A DNA stretch of 51,540 nucleotides from sequence record ON711395.1. One strand, 5' to 3'. Origin of the DNA: Escherichia phage brachmannus. Positions 29,164 to 36,246 of this stretch are shown one piece after another. The notes below the pieces were generated by a model. The model had not been told where the DNA came from and did no database searches. It worked only from the letters and a program-made list of their open reading frames with translations. Numbering within the stretch: the stretch's first letter is position 1; each line of letters starts with the position of its first letter. Made by a program: the position numbers and the translations under genes.

Positions 29164-31161
29164 ATGATTCCAAATATCGAAAAACAAATATCAGCATTAG
29201 GCGAGGCAGTAATAAAAAGCATCCAAGAGCGATTCACGGTTGGCAATATAGTGCCTTATCCTTATCAGTGCGTTGCGTATGCAGAGATCGCAAAGCGCAT
29301 GAAAAACTATGATCATCCTTTCTTTGTTAAGGCTTCTGTATCGGCTGGCAAAACATTGATGTTTGCGATGGTTGCGGCGCAATGCCGCAAAATGGGATTG
29401 AAAATGATGGTCCTTGCTCGCCAGGCTGAAATTGTTGATCAGGATTCGGAAGAGATCAGCAATCTTGGCGTGCCAAACTCAATCTATTGCGCCGGACTGA
29501 AAACAAAAAGCGCATACTTTCCGATCGTAGTAGGTTCTGAGGGCACTGTAGTAAACGGATTGTTTAAGTCGTTAGGTGATTATGTTCCGCACGTTATCGG
29601 TATTGATGAATGTCACCAGGTGGATTGGGAGGATCTCGCGGACGCGATAGAAAATAATGAATCTTACCAGCAGATGACCACTAAGAAGGATTTGCCTGTA
29701 CTGATTGGAGAAGAACAGCAATTTGATTCCAATGGCGATCCAATGTTCGGAACAGGGCGCACACAGTACACCGTAATAATCATGGAAATGATGCGTAGGT
29801 GTCGCGAGGCATACGGGCACGAATTGCGAATATTCGGCATGACTGGATCTGAGTTTCGCGGCGTGGTTACAATACTGGTTGAAGATAAGAACAAAAAGGG
29901 ATTCTGGCGTGAGCAGGTGACTAACATAGACACAAACTACTTAATCAAATTCGGTTCGGTAGTGCCAACAAACTTCGGCGACGTAGGCGACCTGGGTTAT
30001 GACCTTTCAGAGTTCGAAGCCAGTAGCGAGGATGGCGTTTCAGACTTTGACGCTAAAACATTGCGCAAGATGGAAGAAAAGATCCATCAAGACGCAACAA
30101 TGACACAGAAAATCATGGCTAAAGTCCATGAGATATGCAAAGACAGGAACGGAGTTTTAGTTACATGCGCAGGGGAAAGGCACTGCAAGGAGGCCGCCGC
30201 CGCACTGCCGCCAGGCGTTGAATACAGGATCATAACTGGCAAGACTGGAGATAATCAGCGTAAAGAGTGGCTGAGGGAGGCATACGAGGGAAAAGTAAAA
30301 TACATCTTCCAGGTACAGGCGCTTACCACTGGCGTTAACGTTCCGTTTTGGGATACTTCGGTAATACTGAGAAAAATAGGATCTCTAACATTGCTTATCC
30401 AGCTTTTGGGGCGCGGCATGCGACTGCTTAAGCAATGGCACATTGAGCAGGGATTCAAGAAAAAAGATCATCTTGTATTGGATTTTGCAGGTACTATGGA
30501 TGAGTTAGGTGATTTGTATTTCGATCCAATCCTTGAGCAAGCGCAATTCCAAAAGAGATTTACAAACGGGAAAGAGCCTAAGACTTGTCCGATATGTGGA
30601 ACGCTAAACAGCTTTTACGCTCGCCGATGTATGCACGTAGACGATAACGGGAAGCGATGTGAGCATTTTTGGACTTACAGAATTTGCGAGGATCAGGTAG
30701 ATCAGAGAACGAAAAAGATAATCAAGCGCGGTTGCGGAACAAAAAACGACGTAGTGGCGAGAGTATGCCGTTGTTGCGATATTTCTCTTGTCGATCCTAA
30801 CGAGAAGTTAAGCGGTAAGCACTACACCAAAAACGATTGGTGCAACGTTAAATCTTTCCGCGTTGATATGACGAAAAACCAGAAAGGAATTATTTTTTGC
30901 TATGAGCTTGAGGCCAACGGCGATACGTTCAAGGCATACGAAAGATTTTTCCCTGAGTCAGAAAGCAACATTTGCCGGACGATATGGAGAAAAATAGCAT
31001 TGCAGCACATACCGGATCGCAAGATTGCTGGTATGGTGGCGAGCTATAGAAATGCTCGTAAAATAATGTCATACGCTCATCACATCATGCCGCCTGTACG
31101 CGTAACGCATCGCAAAAACGGCAAAGGTGAGGATAACATTGCAAAACGGGAGTTTGTTTAA
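29164..31161 (+). CDS. SF2 DNA helicase (DExH-box) with C-terminal Cys-rich domain
   Basis: Walker A SVSAGKT, DECH box, multiple CxxC pairs in C-terminal third. Confidence 0.75.
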   Translation: MIPNIEKQISALGEAVIKSIQERFTVGNIVPYPYQCVAYAEIAKRMKNYDHPFFVKASVSAGKTLMFAMVAAQCRKMGLKMMVLARQAEIVDQDSEEISNLGVPNSIYCAGLKTKSAYFPIVVGSEGTVVNGLFKSLGDYVPHVIGIDECHQVDWEDLADAIENNESYQQMTTKKDLPVLIGEEQQFDSNGDPMFGTGRTQYTVIIMEMMRRCREAYGHELRIFGMTGSEFRGVVTILVEDKNKKGFWREQVTNIDTNYLIKFGSVVPTNFGDVGDLGYDLSEFEASSEDGVSDFDAKTLRKMEEKIHQDATMTQKIMAKVHEICKDRNGVLVTCAGERHCKEAAAALPPGVEYRIITGKTGDNQRKEWLREAYEGKVKYIFQVQALTTGVNVPFWDTSVILRKIGSLTLLIQLLGRGMRLLKQWHIEQGFKKKDHLVLDFAGTMDELGDLYFDPILEQAQFQKRFTNGKEPKTCPICGTLNSFYARRCMHVDDNGKRCEHFWTYRICEDQVDQRTKKIIKRGCGTKNDVVARVCRCCDISLVDPNEKLSGKHYTKNDWCNVKSFRVDMTKNQKGIIFCYELEANGDTFKAYERFFPESESNICRTIWRKIALQHIPDRKIAGMVASYRNARKIMSYAHHIMPPVRVTHRKNGKGEDNIAKREFV

Positions 31162-31580
31162 TGGCTATAACTGATAAAGGAGATTATCTTGAGTTTTACG
31201 AAAGAGATCCAACCGACACGAGAAAGGAAGTTAATCACCAGATAGATAGCTTTCAGTGGTTGACTTATGCTCATCCTTATTTGCTAGCGTGGCATACGGT
31301 AAACGAGAATGAGAAGTCGAAAGTAACGGCGATGATTGATCAGCAGTCCGGCTTGGTTAAGGGGGTAAGCGATTTCATCATCCTGATTGGTTCAAACGGA
31401 AAATACCCCTTTGCAGCGATTGAGATCAAACGAGTGAATAAATCAGGCAAGGGGAAAGCATCACCAGTCAGCGATGAACAAAAGGCTTTTTTGCGTCGCG
31501 TTCGCAGCTTAGGAGGATTCGCTGCGGTCGCCTACGGATTTAATCAGTTTAAGTTAGCTATTGAATACATGCTTAAATAG
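31161..31580 (+). CDS. VRR-NUC-like PD-(D/E)XK nuclease
   Basis: motif GVSDFIIL...AIEIK; start overlaps helicase stop. Confidence 0.5.
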   Translation: MAITDKGDYLEFYERDPTDTRKEVNHQIDSFQWLTYAHPYLLAWHTVNENEKSKVTAMIDQQSGLVKGVSDFIILIGSNGKYPFAAIEIKRVNKSGKGKASPVSDEQKAFLRRVRSLGGFAAVAYGFNQFKLAIEYMLK

Positions 31581-31596: not shown

Positions 31597-31660
31597 TGGC
31601 GCGATGGATTGCGCCATAATTCAATAACACGAGATGGCTTTTGATAGCGGAGAAATGAAA

Positions 31661-32386
31661 ATGGCTAAAGATATTTTAGATAAAGACACCCATGACGCAT
31701 TTGTTAGCTTTGAGCAGTTGGAGAGAGAAACGTTTATAGGAAATGCTCTTGCAACTGGAGGCCATTACCAAGCAGTAAAGCCAAATCAATATTATAAGGT
31801 AAGCGGCAACCGATACGCTGGAAGCACTACGCCGGACGTTGTGCGCGATATGTGGAGCACACCTCAAGAGATCGTGGAGTGGATGGAATCAGAATTTGGC
31901 GAATACGATCTCGACGCGGCAGCAAGCCAGGAAAACGCAGTTTGCGAGAAGTTCTATAGCAAGAAAACAAACTGCTTAAAGCGTTGGTGGGGTAGCAACA
32001 AGCACGTATGGCTTAACCCGCCGTACAGCAACCCAACTCCATTTATCAAGAAAGCAATTGAGCAAATGGAGCACAACAACCAAATTGATGTTTTGTTGCC
32101 ATCCGACAACTCTACAGCATGGTTTTATGAGGCGCAGAAAAACGCGGCTGAAATCATCTGGATCACTGGCGAGGTTTACGAAGAGGGGGGAGTGGAATAT
32201 TCCCGCACCGGAAGAATCGCCTTTGTGTCTGGATTGACTGGCGAGCCTGTACAGGGCAACAATAAGGGAAGCGTGATTTTTGTCATGCGCAAACTTAAAG
32301 AAGGCGAGGAGCAGAAAACGCGATACGTTAAGATCAGCGATATTTGCCCCTCTGTAACCGAACGCCGCGCGCGCAAACGGAGCTAA
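31661..32386 (+). CDS. dam: DNA N6-adenine methyltransferase (phage Dam-type)
   Basis: LNPPYSN catalytic motif; ATG 31661 with GGAG RBS (track start 31634 alternative). Confidence 0.8.
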   Translation: MAKDILDKDTHDAFVSFEQLERETFIGNALATGGHYQAVKPNQYYKVSGNRYAGSTTPDVVRDMWSTPQEIVEWMESEFGEYDLDAAASQENAVCEKFYSKKTNCLKRWWGSNKHVWLNPPYSNPTPFIKKAIEQMEHNNQIDVLLPSDNSTAWFYEAQKNAAEIIWITGEVYEEGGVEYSRTGRIAFVSGLTGEPVQGNNKGSVIFVMRKLKEGEEQKTRYVKISDICPSVTERRARKRS

Positions 32387-32667: not shown

Positions 32668-32723
32668 GCCCGGCATTTTGTCGGGCATAATTATTTCATC
32701 GAAACGAACGTGAGGAAATGAAA

Positions 32724-32903
32724 ATGGTAGTATATAGCAAGAAAGCATTTGACCAGGCGCAACAAGCCGCACGCGAGGCGGTAAAAGGTGGAACGAAAAA
32801 CAATATGCAGCTTGATTGGGGCGCTGCAATGATTCTACTTCGCGTTGCATATGGTCACTACCCATTAGAATTTGCGGAGGCATATTATAAGCATGAAGGT
32901 TGA
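32724..32903 (+). CDS. hypothetical protein
   Basis: ATG after GAGGAAATGAAA leader conserved with other early genes. Confidence 0.45.
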   Translation: MVVYSKKAFDQAQQAAREAVKGGTKNNMQLDWGAAMILLRVAYGHYPLEFAEAYYKHEG

Positions 32904-33135
32904 ACAAGGTAGAGAGGCGGTATGGAATCACGCTAAAGAATGCGGAATAGCCGACGATATAAAGAAGATCGCGCAATACTTTGATATTGCAGATGTGAGC
33001 ATAATTAGCGGTGATAAGATGACTTTCCTCAAGGAAAGGCCGCGAAAAATGGTAAGAGTTCCAGCAGTTCCAACAAAAATTGATTTCAAAGAGGCAATGG
33101 CTAAAATCCGAGAGCCTCGCAAATATTATAAATGA
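32893..33135 (+). CDS. hypothetical protein
   Basis: ATG 32893 overlapping previous stop (track start 32872 is TTG). Confidence 0.4.
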   Translation: MKVEQGREAVWNHAKECGIADDIKKIAQYFDIADVSIISGDKMTFLKERPRKMVRVPAVPTKIDFKEAMAKIREPRKYYK

Positions 33136-33229
33136 GGATAGTTATCATGTGGCGCTTGTTTGTTCTACCGTTACCCGTTATCATCGCTGTTACAGTTATG
33201 TACCATATAGTGATGAGATAGGTAGCAGA

Positions 33230-34345
33230 ATGAAAAATGTAAAAATTACAGATGAGCAATTCAAGATCGAACGGGCGGCTGGTAAGACATATAAACAGAT
33301 CGCTCAAGAGTACGGAATGAATGTGAGAAGCGTCGAGCGTCGCGCGGCGCGACTTGCAAAGCAAGGCCAAGTATCCACAATTGGAGCGCCTGGTTTTGGC
33401 GTTCATGGTGAGTCAGTAATGACTGACAAAGAAGGCAACATAATCCTAAAGTGGACTAAAACCAGCAAGGATAAAGAGCAATTAGAAGCATTAATGCGCG
33501 CAGCAATGGAGGCATTTAGCGAGGAAGTGCCGCGATTAGATCCGGTTCCATTACAGGAGCGCGACTATAACGAAACGCTTTCCTTGTATCCGATCTTTGA
33601 CATGCACTTAGGCGCTATGGCCCATAAGCACGAATGCGGCGAAAATTGGGATACTGCCACGGCAGAGCGCGTTATGAATAACTTTATCGACTATGCTTTA
33701 ATGTGCGCACCGGATAGCGAAAAGGCTGTCATCCTGATTGGCGGCGATATGCTGCATAGCGACGGCCTGGAGGCGGTTACACCTGCAAGCGGTCACGTAC
33801 TGGATCAAGATAGTCGATATGCAAAATTGGTTTACGTTGCCATCCGTGCAATGCGACGCGCAATCAATAAAATGTTGTTAAAGCATAAACATGTTGAAGT
33901 CCAGATCGTAGAGGGCAATCATGACCAATCAGGAATGATTTGGCTACGCGCAGCAATGGCGGCAGCATATGAAAACGAGCCGCGCGTTTACGTTGATGTT
34001 TCCCCTCGCGTTGTGCACCACACGCAATACGGAAAAACTTTCCTTGCGTACCATCACGGGCACACAGTGCGTAAACCGGAGGCTTTGCTAATGATGTGCG
34101 CGTCAGATTGGCGGGAGGACTTCGGAAACTCAAAAACGATGTATGCGCACGTAGGGCACTGGCATCACCAGACCGTGACAGAAACGTCTCTTGGCATCGT
34201 TGAGGTGCATAGCACCCTGGCGGCAAAAGACGCATACGCAGCGCGCGGTGGCTGGCGATCTCGACGCCGTGCGGCGGTTATCATTTACGACAAAGAGCAT
34301 GGAGAGGTTGGGCGATTTGTTCACTATCCAGAAATGATGAATTGA
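33230..34345 (+). CDS. calcineurin-like metallophosphoesterase with N-terminal HTH-like region
   Basis: motifs GDMLHSDG, EGNHD, HHGH, GHWHH; N-terminal KQIAQEYGMNVRSVERRAARL HTH-like. Confidence 0.5.
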   Translation: MKNVKITDEQFKIERAAGKTYKQIAQEYGMNVRSVERRAARLAKQGQVSTIGAPGFGVHGESVMTDKEGNIILKWTKTSKDKEQLEALMRAAMEAFSEEVPRLDPVPLQERDYNETLSLYPIFDMHLGAMAHKHECGENWDTATAERVMNNFIDYALMCAPDSEKAVILIGGDMLHSDGLEAVTPASGHVLDQDSRYAKLVYVAIRAMRRAINKMLLKHKHVEVQIVEGNHDQSGMIWLRAAMAAAYENEPRVYVDVSPRVVHHTQYGKTFLAYHHGHTVRKPEALLMMCASDWREDFGNSKTMYAHVGHWHHQTVTETSLGIVEVHSTLAAKDAYAARGGWRSRRRAAVIIYDKEHGEVGRFVHYPEMMN

Positions 34346-34389: not shown

Positions 34390-34421
34390 AAAGGGGCGGC
34401 GTTTGTCGCCTCTTTTTTTTG
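34390..34421 (+). terminator. terminator after phosphoesterase gene, before lysis cassette
   Basis: GC-rich hairpin then T8. Confidence 0.6.
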
Positions 34422-34490
34422 TTTAATTTTTTACCATGTACGTTTATCATGCGGTCAATATATTGACTTTAATTAATATGGAGAATAAAA

Positions 34491-35603: not shown

Positions 35604-35783
35604 TTCGATACGCTTTACAGTAACCAACAAAACGCCGTCTTCATCACACAAATTATGCTCTGATATATCAAACGCTCGCATGTCAGAATGAATGAGCGTT
35701 AACATTGCGTGCATGAAGTCGTCATGTGAGATTTGAGAAGTGGCGCAAAATTTAAGAATTTCATCTATCAGTTTACTTTCCAT
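35601..35783 (-). CDS. hypothetical protein
   Basis: about 60 aa from internal ATG (MESKLIDE...). Confidence 0.35.
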   Translation of the reverse strand: MESKLIDEILKFCATSQISHDDFMHAMLTLIHSDMRAFDISEHNLCDEDGVLLVTVKRIE

Positions 35784-36246
35784 GATTTTTGTGGTAGCCA
35801 AATTTAACCTCCGCCTGTTCCCTTGCCTTAATTGCATCATCAAGACTTAAAAAATATCCTAAATGCACGCTCTTACCGTTATCATATATAGTTGCGTGCC
35901 ATCTTTTGTTTTTCTTATTCCAGCAAACACCAACTCGACCAGAGTTATTTCTTTTTAGTAGAGATACGTTTTTGCTGTTATCTAATCTTGATGCAAGCCT
36001 TAGATTTTCAATTCTGTTATCGCTCCTATTGTGCCATATATGGTCTATTTCCATTCCTTCTGGTATTTTTCCATTGTGCATTTCCCATATTATCCTATGC
36101 GCCAAAAACAATACACCATTATACCTTATTCTCACATATCCATTTTCACATACACATCCCGCAACGCTTCCAGGCTTTGCTTTCCCTCTTCTGTTTCTCC
36201 ATCTCAATATTCCATTGTCATATATAAATACTTCATTCCAATCCAT
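35773..36246 (-). CDS. HNH homing endonuclease with AP2-like domain (paralog of 16428-16904)
   Basis: EIDHIWHN...NLRL HNH motif; AT-rich, AGA/AGG codons; similar to first HNH gene. Confidence 0.8.
   Translation of the reverse strand: MDWNEVFIYDNGILRWRNRRGKAKPGSVAGCVCENGYVRIRYNGVLFLAHRIIWEMHNGKIPEGMEIDHIWHNRSDNRIENLRLASRLDNSKNVSLLKRNNSGRVGVCWNKKNKRWHATIYDNGKSVHLGYFLSLDDAIKAREQAEVKFGYHKNHGK

What the first reader, a model, noticed from the sequence alone, without database searches (positions are those of the whole stretch)
33230..34345. Metallophosphoesterase fused to an N-terminal HTH-like segment
The product has calcineurin-like motifs (GDMLHSDG, EGNHD, HHGH, GHWHH) preceded by a helix-turn-helix-like segment. 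Within what I can recognise by eye, this combination is uncommon; it could be a DNA-targeted phosphoesterase or nuclease, or a phosphatase acting on host signalling.
Basis: partly seen in the sequence, partly recalled or inferred. Interest (0 to 1): 0.45.

Follow-up and report, generated by a model that had tools for sequence, protein, structure and literature searches.

The report
Phage HTH-linked metallophosphoesterase, probable nuclease
This is a real two-part phage protein: a DNA-binding helix-turn-helix joined to a metal-dependent phosphoesterase. It belongs to a very common, already catalogued phage family that is probably a DNA nuclease, but nobody has tested its function.

Summary
ORF 33230-34345 (+) encodes 371 aa with all five calcineurin-type metallophosphoesterase (MPE) motifs, after an N-terminal three-helix HTH. 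These features are invariant or strongly conserved in thousands of relatives and are reproduced by an AlphaFold model (pLDDT 86).

The window is a complete T1-like coliphage (Drexlerviridae, Warwickvirus). The protein is 100% identical to gp49 of phage tonn and is the homologue of T1 gp16. It is a full-length member of PHROG 704, annotated 'DNA repair exonuclease' or 'putative phosphoesterase'.

The fusion is not uncommon:
- It occurs in 2,040 of 50,697 phage records.
- A published survey reports the exonuclease-lysis gene module containing it in 508 of 522 Drexlerviridae.
- It occurs in many proteobacterial prophages.

Best reading, confidence about 0.55: a stand-alone Mn-dependent DNA nuclease tethered by its own HTH, acting in phage DNA metabolism. 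It is a candidate for the still-unassigned host-DNA degradation activity of T1. The sequence is already known, the function is untested, and interest is modest.

The parts
33230..34345 (+). Complete gene for the 371-aa HTH-metallophosphoesterase protein, stop codon included. It is the homologue of T1 gp16 and is identical to phage tonn gp49.
   Evidence: ORF and translation. PHROG 704 E 7.5e-149 over aa 5-370. 100% tblastn identity to phage tonn. Homologues 60-86% identical start at this ATG, not at the RefSeq GTG at 33149.
33215..33222 (+). Possible weak ribosome-binding site: GAGATAGG, with AGG ending 7 nt before the ATG.
   Evidence: Read from the sequence. Inference only.
33251..33367 (+). 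N-terminal helix-turn-helix domain, aa 8-46, three helices, net charge of aa 1-50 is +6.
   Evidence: AF2 helices at 8-16, 21-28 and 32-44. Sub-threshold Sigma70_r4_2, HTH_28 and HTH_23 matches. Family-wide HTH Pfam hits. Ala/Gly/Val signature conserved. Charge.
33395..33523 (+). Linker module: beta-hairpin (aa 56-80) plus a long helix (aa 82-98), with conserved S62, G69, W75, K77 and D81.
   Evidence: AF2 secondary structure. Conservation in A3. No named domain was found for it.
33575..34324 (+). Calcineurin-like metallophosphoesterase catalytic domain, aa 116-365.
33596..33613 (+). MPE motif I, FDMHLG (D124, H126).
   Evidence: Invariant in 99 representatives. Aligns to SDWHLG of the Thermotoga Mre11/SbcD-type nuclease 2q8u.
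33743..33766 (+). MPE motif II, GDMLHSDG (D173, H176, D178), the Mre11-like GDxxH form.
   Evidence: D173 is invariant and H176 and D178 are at least 90% conserved. Aligns to GDLLHS of the Thermotoga Mre11/SbcD-type nuclease 2q8u.
33776..33829 (+). Family-specific conserved loop VTPASGHVLDQDSRYAKL (T184, D192, D194, R196 invariant or nearly so). Predicted flexible; a candidate substrate-binding element.
   Evidence: Conservation. Low pLDDT for aa 181-200. The proposed role is inference.
33911..33925 (+). MPE motif III, EGNHD (N230, H231, D232).
34052..34063 (+). MPE motif IV, HHGH (H276, G277, H278).
34154..34168 (+). MPE motif V, GHWHH (G309, H310, H312).
34214..34288 (+). Conserved Arg-rich C-terminal loop and strand, TLAAKDAYAARGGWRSRRRAAVIIY.
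   Evidence: D334, G341 and R346 are invariant in A3. pLDDT dips at aa 331-340. The function is inferred.
34390..34425 (+). Intrinsic-terminator-like hairpin plus T-run directly after the gene. It separates the gene from the holin/endolysin/spanin cassette.
   Evidence: 11-bp stem with 6 GC pairs, then TTTTTTGTTTA. A terminator is annotated at the same place in T1.

Best explanation
The gene encodes a stand-alone, two-metal (probably Mn2+) phosphodiesterase that acts on DNA.

Anatomy:
- The C-terminal two thirds (aa ~116-365) form a calcineurin-like MPE domain with a complete metal-binding site. Its motif I (DxHLG) and motif II (GDxxH) are of the Mre11/SbcD type.
- The N-terminal ~45 residues form a basic three-helix HTH, joined through a beta-hairpin and a helix.

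Proposed mechanism: the HTH holds the enzyme on duplex DNA. It takes the place of the capping domain and Rad50 clamp that position Mre11, or the polymerase partner that positions PolD DP1. The MPE site then cuts phosphodiester bonds as an exo- and/or endonuclease.

Proposed role: in the phage it works with the DNA-metabolism genes. It processes or degrades DNA so that replication, recombination and nucleotide salvage can proceed. The most specific version is that it contributes to the host-chromosome breakdown and nucleotide re-use known for T1 and TLS, whose gene has not been identified.

Shown here: architecture, motif conservation, fold, family size, gene context. Inferred: DNA as substrate, nuclease chemistry, biological role.
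For: Active site:
- It is intact and under strong selection. D124, H126, D173, N230, H231, H276 and H312 are invariant in 99 distant representatives.

Fold and sequence neighbours:
- AF2 pLDDT is 86.
- Foldseek ranks 1 and 2 are Mre11.
- A profile of the MPE domain alone recovers only a Thermotoga Mre11/SbcD-type nuclease (three sequence variants) and an unrelated ribosomal protein from the PDB. It aligns DxHLG and GDLLHS, at E 0.49, which is not significant.
- The nuclease PdeM is the only NCBIfam enzyme model hit, in 19 of 99 relatives (best E 1.6e-5).

HTH:
- It is conserved family-wide and basic.

Context:
- In the window the gene follows a helicase, a VRR-NUC-type endonuclease-like gene and Dam, and ends at a terminator.
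- It lies next to DnaB in an E. coli lambdoid prophage.
- In Pseudomonas phage MR4 it lies between an endonuclease gene and phosphatase, dNMP kinase and ligase genes.
- It is next to PNK in PY100.
- dNMP kinase is the commonest identified downstream neighbour in 79 prophage loci. dNMP kinase and PNK are the genes most often found directly after it in Drexlerviridae that lack the SH3 gene (PMC13164509).

Precedents for lone phage MPEs, by fold and chemistry only (Bxb1 gp47 showed no specific profile link here; Gp48 was not compared):
- Bxb1 gp47 has the same Mre11/DP1 structural neighbours. [quoted passage not shown]
- Mycobacteriophage Gp48 has phosphodiesterase activity and disrupts host genomic DNA (PMC12287305).

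Open question it could answer:
- T1 and TLS degrade host DNA, and the responsible product is unidentified (PMC11447400).
Against: - No experiment exists for any member of this family.
- The fold match is generic: TM about 0.4, 12-18% identity. A small-molecule phosphodiesterase (MJ0936) scores as well as the nucleases.
- All sequence links to named nucleases are below significance.
- There is no capping domain and no Rad50/SbcC gene in the genome, so it is not a canonical Mre11 system.
- Gene position varies. It often lies beside lysis genes or just before terminase genes rather than in a replication module.
- The family is common in temperate prophages, which from general knowledge do not usually destroy the host chromosome. 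That weakens the host-degradation version.
- Other nucleases in the genome (RecE-like exonuclease VIII, the VRR-NUC-type protein, HNH) could equally carry out host DNA breakdown.
Confidence: 0.55

Rival explanations
1. Phosphodiesterase for small nucleotides. The MPE domain hydrolyses cyclic or linear (oligo)nucleotides, for example immune second messengers, cAMP, Ap4A or 2',3'-cNMP, or it trims nucleotide pools. The HTH only localises or regulates it.
For: - Neighbours are often nucleotide-metabolism genes: dNMP kinase, dATP/dGTP diphosphohydrolase, ThyX.
Against: - A conserved DNA-binding HTH has no obvious role for a soluble small-molecule enzyme.
- Motifs I and II are of the Mre11 form.
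- There are no hits to defence or anti-defence models.
- The characterised phage enzymes that degrade immune signals (Acb1, Apyc1) have other folds. This point is from my own knowledge and was not tested here.
Confidence: 0.15
2. Nucleic-acid end-healing enzyme. It removes 3'-phosphate, 2',3'-cyclic phosphate or other blocking groups at broken DNA or RNA ends, so that a polynucleotide kinase and a ligase can reseal them. This would counter host nucleases.
For: - It is adjacent to a short polynucleotide kinase in PY100. PNK is among the genes most often found directly after it in Drexlerviridae lacking the SH3 gene (PMC13164509).
- Phosphatase, dNMP kinase and DNA ligase genes follow it in MR4.
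- There are weak hits to PdeM of the ligase-associated repair cluster.
- MPE domains do this job in bacterial Pnkp. This point is from my own knowledge.
Against: - This window has no PNK or ligase next to the gene.
- The PNK and ligase association is present in only a minority of contexts.
- The HTH points to duplex DNA rather than to tRNA ends.
Confidence: 0.12
3. Transcription regulator. The sigma-region-4/LuxR-like HTH binds promoters of late (lysis and packaging) genes, and the MPE domain is a sensor or accessory module.
For: - The HTH resembles sigma-70 region 4, ECF sigma and GerE.
- The gene often lies directly upstream of late genes: the lysis cassette in this window and T1, and the terminase genes in JL1 and a Paraburkholderia prophage.
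Against: - All catalytic residues are invariant, which argues for an enzyme.
- HTH recognition-helix positions are poorly conserved.
- A terminator separates the gene from the holin gene.
- In many prophages it lies after the lysis genes, not before them.
- In other phages it sits among replication or nucleotide-metabolism genes.
Confidence: 0.08
4. Protein Ser/Thr/Tyr phosphatase like lambda NinI (lambda-PPase) that rewires host signalling.
For: - It is the same superfamily.
- Lambda carries an MPE phosphatase in its nin region (own knowledge). Some prophage homologues lie near NinB or NinG genes.
Against: - The PPP signatures GDxHG and GDxVDRG are absent.
- There is no Pfam or NCBIfam phosphatase hit.
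- The HTH is left unexplained.
Confidence: 0.05

Closest known systems
PHROG 704 / T1 gp16 (ST16) / tonn gp49, annotated 'DNA repair exonuclease' or 'putative phosphoesterase'
   Same: It is the same family and, for tonn, the same sequence. The HMM match is full length at E 7.5e-149, identity to tonn is 100%, and T1 has the same gene order and terminator.
   Different: Nothing differs. The family name is a prediction, and I found no experimental study of it. The HTH module is not mentioned in any of the record annotations I saw.
Mre11 / SbcD nucleases
   Different: There is no capping domain after the MPE core. No Rad50/SbcC gene is present in the 51.5-kb genome. Neither NCBIfam nor Pfam assigns it to an SbcD/Mre11 family. 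It has an N-terminal HTH instead.
Bxb1 gp47 (cluster A mycobacteriophage MPE; recombination directionality factor; required for DNA replication; weak exonuclease)
   Same: It is a lone phage-encoded MPE. Its structural neighbours are Mre11 and PolD DP1, and it lies among replication genes (PMC11795197). It is the best experimental precedent for how such an enzyme works.
   Different: It is 255 aa without an HTH. It shows no specific profile relationship (hhalign probability 4%, motifs III-V only). The window has no serine-integrase partner.
Mycobacteriophage A10ZJ24 Gp48 (MPE that disrupts host genomic DNA)
   Same: It is a phage MPE with the five motifs and has phosphodiesterase activity. It disrupts host genomic DNA integrity early in infection (PMC12287305). 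This parallels the host-DNA-degradation version of the hypothesis.
   Different: It belongs to the cluster A MPE group, as Bxb1 gp47 does. It was not compared directly here, so homology beyond the superfamily is untested. No HTH is mentioned in the parts of the paper I read.
Phage T5 A1 (essential for host DNA degradation)
   Same: The A1 family has invariant residues in MPE-like order: GDxH, HD, NH, H, GHxH. Some homologues have N-terminal HTH Pfam hits. Motif III is locally similar: IVESNHDLALSRWL against IVEGNHDQSGMIWL.
   Different: A relationship is not established. hhalign probability is 12-40% and covers only one motif or the HTH, and global alignment fails. A1 is not among the top 50 BFVD structural hits. 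A1 is 556 aa with a large extra middle region.
PdeM / Pseudomonas putida 'Nuclease MPE' (ligase-associated DNA damage response)
   Same: It is the only curated enzyme model that family members touch: 19 of 99 relatives, best E 1.6e-5. The PDB entry 6nvo is named 'Nuclease MPE' and the NCBIfam model describes an endonuclease; that it is Mn-dependent and acts alone is from my own knowledge.
Lambda Ser/Thr protein phosphatase (NinI) and other PPP phosphatases
   Same: It is the same superfamily and is also phage-encoded.

Membership tests
Calcineurin-like metallophosphoesterase superfamily | Five metal-binding motifs in order: DxH, GD, GNH[D/E], H, GHxH | tested here: met
   FDMHLG, GDMLHSDG, EGNHD, HHGH and GHWHH are at aa 123-313. 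The key residues are invariant in 99 representatives.
Calcineurin-like metallophosphoesterase superfamily | Beta-sandwich MPE fold | tested here: met
Calcineurin-like metallophosphoesterase superfamily | Pfam PF00149 Metallophos at the gathering score | tested here: not met
   The score is 16.6 bits against a cut-off of 21.5, E 0.011. 22 of 99 relatives hit PF00149 at E<=0.01. The family is a divergent branch that the Pfam model barely reaches.
PHROG 704 ('DNA repair exonuclease') | Full-length match to the family HMM | tested here: met
   E 7.5e-149, aa 5-370 against profile positions 3-389 of 390.
Helix-turn-helix DNA-binding domains (sigma-70 region 4 / LuxR-GerE-like) | Three-helix bundle with the HTH sequence signature | tested here: met
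   AF2 helices at 8-16, 21-28 and 32-44. Ala25, Gly29 and Val35 are conserved in 75-79 of 99 relatives.
Helix-turn-helix DNA-binding domains (sigma-70 region 4 / LuxR-GerE-like) | A Pfam HTH model at the gathering score | tested here: not met
   For this protein the best is Sigma70_r4_2 at 18.4 bits against 25.7. Relatives score much better: Sigma70_r4_2 E 1.5e-9 and GerE E 2.4e-8. PF08281 is precomputed for P0025, P0026, P0030 and P0088.
Helix-turn-helix DNA-binding domains (sigma-70 region 4 / LuxR-GerE-like) | Actual DNA binding | not testable with these tools
   This needs a gel shift or ChIP.
Mre11/SbcD nucleases | MPE nuclease domain with DxHLG and GDxxH motifs | tested here: met
Mre11/SbcD nucleases | C-terminal capping domain next to the active site | tested here: not met
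   The protein ends about 6 residues after the last MPE strand, and the model has no extra domain.
Mre11/SbcD nucleases | Rad50/SbcC ATPase partner gene | tested here: not met
   Of the 18 ORFs of at least 250 aa in the window, 16 were scanned (besides the target) and assigned to terminase, portal, protease, capsid, tape measure, tail, exonuclease VIII, primase, helicases and methyltransferases. None is SMC-like. Four ORFs of 251-277 aa were not scanned but are far too short for a Rad50.
Mre11/SbcD nucleases | Match to curated SbcD/Mre11 sequence models | tested here: not met
   No SbcD or Mre11 model appears among the NCBIfam or Pfam hits for the query or in the listed top families for its relatives.
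PdeM (ligase-associated DNA damage response endonuclease, TIGR04123) | Score above the curated cut-off | tested here: not met
   16.5 bits against 150. Weak local hits occur in 19 of 99 relatives.
PPP-family protein phosphatases (lambda NinI type) | GDxHG, GDxVDRG and GNHE signatures and a close PPP fold | tested here: not met
T5 A1 family (PHROG 1745) | Significant profile or structural similarity | tested here: inconclusive
   hhalign probability is 12-40% over a single motif or the HTH only. Global alignment fails. A1 hits only PHROG 1745. It is absent from the top 50 BFVD hits. The motif order and the N-terminal HTH in some A1 homologues are nevertheless similar.
Known anti-phage defence or counter-defence proteins (PADLOC) | Match to any PADLOC model | tested here: not met
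   No families at E<=1.

The most novel reading that the evidence does not exclude
The HTH-MPE family (T1 gp16 / PHROG 704) is the host-takeover nuclease that degrades the bacterial chromosome in T1-like infections. That activity has been known for T1 since 1981, and its gene product is still unidentified (PMC11447400). On this reading it releases mononucleotides that neighbouring dNMP kinases recycle. It would then be a functional, and possibly distantly related, counterpart of T5 A1, spread across roughly 4% of sequenced phages.
Probability: 0.2. Interest if true: 0.6.

Novelty: already known. Interest (0 to 1): 0.3.

Why it matters
This is one of the most widespread phage gene families with no experimental function:
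- It is present in about 4% of the phage genome records searched.
- Its gene heads a conserved module reported in 508 of 522 Drexlerviridae (PMC13164509).
- It is common in proteobacterial prophages.

Showing that it is an HTH-tethered nuclease would explain how an Mre11-like active site can work without Rad50. It would also give a concrete, easily tested candidate for the old unanswered question of which T1 or TLS gene degrades host DNA. That could lead to T1-type phages that transduce better or are safer to use. As a sequence feature, however, it is already deposited and annotated. The new content here is interpretation, not discovery.

Tried and rejected
1. Direct sequence link to a solved structure. 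phmmer and profile searches of the PDB found nothing significant.

2. Specific homology to T5 A1, the host-DNA degradation protein. The motif order and a local motif III match looked promising. hhalign gave only 12-40% probability over short stretches, global alignment failed, and A1 is not among the top BFVD neighbours. I kept it only as a lead. A1 has no Pfam hit and no related PDB entry.

3. Specific homology to Bxb1 gp47. hhalign probability is 4%, so the relationship is at superfamily level only.

4. Defence or anti-defence membership. No PADLOC hit.

5. A lambda-Q-like arrangement (promoter, then terminator, before the lysis genes). The order here is gene, terminator, weak promoter-like site. 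Promoter-like sites are no more frequent than in shuffled sequence: 11 against 12.8 +/- 3.8.

6. A single conserved gene partner. Contexts differ widely. Only loose associations emerged, with endolysins upstream and dNMP kinase downstream.

7. Mapping to T1 genetic gene 2.5. The T1 genome paper is not in the library and the searches found nothing. The T1 record carries no genetic-map names.

8. Literature on the family's function. Only annotation-level mentions were found.

9. The first AF2 run, with 21 close sequences, gave pLDDT 73. I replaced it with a 139-sequence run.

I repeated it with A5.
Full report
**What the window is.** The 51,540-bp window is a complete T1-like siphophage genome. 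The region around the finding is 99.0-99.6% identical to Escherichia phages EC195, tonn, JK16 and others. Tonn is classified as Drexlerviridae, Tempevirinae, Warwickvirus. My own PHROG scans of the large ORFs give the gene map:
- terminase, portal, protease, capsid, tape measure, tail tip J
- a RecE-like exonuclease VIII, tail fibre, primase
- two helicases, two DNA methyltransferases, an HNH endonuclease
- a holin/endolysin/spanin cassette

**The observation.**
- ORF 33230-34345 (+) is open from ATG to TGA and encodes 371 aa.
- The ATG at 33230 is the better start. The RefSeq record of tonn starts 27 codons upstream at a GTG. Homologues 60-86% identical all begin at the ATG position, and the PHROG profile starts at residue 5.

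**Is it more than chance?**
- The protein matches PHROG 704 end to end (E 7.5e-149).
- tblastn finds it in 2,040 of 50,697 phage records, 1,955 of them near full length.
- An exhaustive phmmer search of 1.84 billion representatives finds 4,614 clusters at E<=1e-3 and 1,053 at E<=1e-30, mostly 370-420 aa long.
- In 99 representatives only 33-54% identical to the query, D124, H126, D173, T184, N230, H231, H276, G277, G309 and H312 are invariant. H176, D178, D232, H278 and H310 are at least 90% conserved.
- The single sequence is below Pfam's gathering score for Metallophos (16.6 against 21.5 bits). This is a divergent MPE branch, which is why annotation pipelines disagree: some records call it hypothetical, others phosphoesterase or 'DNA repair exonuclease'.

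**The HTH.**
- For this sequence the HTH Pfam hits are also sub-threshold: Sigma70_r4_2 at E 0.0017, plus HTH_28 and HTH_23.
- Across the family the signal is consistent. 97 of 99 representatives align through the segment. The three signature positions are Ala in 78, Gly in 75 and Val/Leu/Ile in 79 of the 99.
- Individual members hit HTH_1, HTH_8, HTH_50, Sigma70_r4_2 (1.5e-9), GerE (2.4e-8) and others.
- AlphaFold2 with a 139-sequence alignment (pLDDT 86.3, pTM 0.71) gives three short helices at aa 8-16, 21-28 and 32-44. A beta-hairpin (56-80) and a long helix (82-98) follow, then the MPE core from about aa 116 to 365.
- Residues 1-50 carry a net charge of +6.
- The fusion is therefore ancestral and defines the family. 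It is not a peculiarity of this phage.

**Which kind of MPE?**
- Foldseek ranks Mre11 first and second, with low TM scores of about 0.4.
- A profile of the MPE domain alone pulls only a Thermotoga maritima Mre11/SbcD-type nuclease (three sequence variants) and one unrelated ribosomal protein from the PDB, at E 0.49. It aligns tdlhlG to SDWHLG and GDLLHS to GDLLHS. That is not significant, but it shows that motifs I and II are of the Mre11 form.
- Among curated NCBIfam models, the only enzyme family that relatives touch is the nuclease PdeM: 19 of 99, best E 1.6e-5.
- Canonical Mre11/SbcD membership fails on defined features. There is no capping domain and no Rad50/SbcC gene in the genome. No SbcD or Mre11 family appears among the Pfam or NCBIfam hits listed.
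- The PPP phosphatase signatures are absent.

**Context.**
- In the window the gene closes a rightward block: helicase (29164-31161), a phrog_824 protein annotated VRR-NUC in tonn, with a weak endonuclease hit (31161-31580), Dam methyltransferase (31634-32386), three small ORFs, then the MPE gene. A strong terminator-like hairpin follows at 34390-34415, then holin, endolysin and spanin. T1 has the same layout with annotated terminators.
- A published pangenome analysis found the module exonuclease-holin-endolysin-spanin in 508 of 522 Drexlerviridae. In phages lacking the SH3 gene, polynucleotide kinase or dNMP kinase most often lie directly after the 'exonuclease' gene (PMC13164509).
- Elsewhere the position varies:
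  - next to DnaB in the replication module of an E. coli lambdoid prophage
  - directly before terminase genes in Dhillonvirus JL1 and a Paraburkholderia prophage
  - after lysis genes in several phages and prophages
  - among nucleotide-metabolism genes in an N4-like roseophage
  - in T7-like Pseudomonas phage MR4, between an endonuclease gene and phosphatase, dNMP kinase and ligase genes
  - beside PNK in PY100
- At least 107 species-representative bacterial genomes of Alpha-, Beta- and Gammaproteobacteria carry a relative, many inside large chromosomal contigs.
- I made a crude neighbour census of 79 such loci, taking the two largest ORFs within 4 kb on each side. Endolysin domains were the commonest identifiable upstream neighbours: Phage_lysozyme 7, GH19 4, GH108 2, Amidase_2 2, M15_4 1. 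Downstream, dNMP kinase (7) and integrase (6) were commonest.
- There is no single obligatory partner, so the protein probably acts on its own.

**Literature.**
- I found no experimental work on this family.
- Three papers bear on how it may work:
  - The Bxb1 RDF gp47 is a lone calcineurin-like phosphoesterase whose best structural matches are Mre11 and PolD DP1. [quoted passage not shown]
  - Mycobacteriophage A10ZJ24 Gp48 is an MPE with phosphodiesterase activity that disrupts host genomic DNA (PMC12287305).
- I tested direct relationships. Bxb1 gp47 aligns only at superfamily level (hhalign probability 4%).
- T5 A1 is needed for host DNA degradation. Its family has an MPE-like set of invariant residues, and some homologues have N-terminal HTHs. 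Profile comparison gives only 12-40% probability over short stretches. A1 is not among the top BFVD neighbours. That link stays a lead.

**Most likely mechanism (confidence about 0.55).** I propose an HTH-tethered, two-metal DNA phosphodiesterase. The HTH holds the enzyme on duplex DNA. The Mre11-like site, flanked by two highly conserved flexible loops (aa 183-200 and 329-346), cuts the DNA. The enzyme serves phage DNA metabolism, either by processing ends and structures or by breaking down DNA for nucleotide salvage. The architecture, conservation and fold are shown. Substrate and role are inferred.

**Rivals.**
- small-nucleotide phosphodiesterase (0.15)
- end-healing enzyme working with PNK and ligase (0.12)
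- late-gene regulator (0.08)
- protein phosphatase (0.05)

**Verdict.** It is a known, annotated, very widespread phage family whose function has not been tested. Interest is modest (0.3). It would rise if the protein proves to be the missing T1 host-DNA degradation enzyme, which I rate at about 0.2.

Noticed in passing
window 35773-36246 (-): An HNH homing-endonuclease ORF (157 aa, phrog_99 E 2.4e-67) lies between the spanin gene and the YdbL-like gene. The same interval in the near-identical phage tonn is about 200 nt shorter and has no HNH annotated. This suggests a mobile-endonuclease gain or loss.
   Followed up: partly
window 33149-33229 (+): RefSeq annotates the tonn orthologue from a GTG 27 codons upstream (398 aa). 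Homologue N-termini and the PHROG profile support the ATG at 33230 instead, so the deposited start is probably too long.
   Followed up: yes
L011 1706-3376 (-) (phage T5 gene A1) and alignment A4: Pfam finds nothing in T5 A1. Yet its family has invariant residues in the order of MPE motifs (G302-D303-x-H305, H338-D339, N395-H396, H475, H500-x-H502), and several homologues have N-terminal HTH Pfam hits. A1 may be an unrecognised HTH-MPE nuclease. No significant link to the T1 family could be shown.
   Followed up: partly
window 32668-32686 and 34390-34415 (+): Two terminator-like hairpins bracket a short unit made of two small ORFs of unknown function (32718-32903, phrog_2180; 32872-33135, phrog_2817) and the MPE gene. 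T1 has the same bracketed layout (ST18-ST16). No convincing promoter was found for the unit.
   Followed up: partly
loci L016-L095 (proteobacterial genomes): In prophages the gene commonly lies after an endolysin gene and near a dNMP kinase (PF21448) or the integrase end of the prophage. This differs from its position before the lysis cassette in Drexlerviridae. The census was crude: only the two largest ORFs within 4 kb on each side were scanned.
   Followed up: partly
L002 5665-10559 (E. coli lambdoid prophage): A 67%-identical homologue sits between an O-like HTH_36 protein plus a T5orf172/DUF4379 protein and a DnaB-type helicase. That is inside the replication module, where lambda has its P gene.
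   Followed up: no
whole window (1-51540): No ORF of at least 250 aa is a DNA polymerase or a Rad50-like ATPase. Of the 18 such ORFs, four of 251-277 aa were not scanned. Replication must therefore rely on the host polymerase, which leaves room for a phage-encoded editing or processing nuclease.
   Followed up: partly
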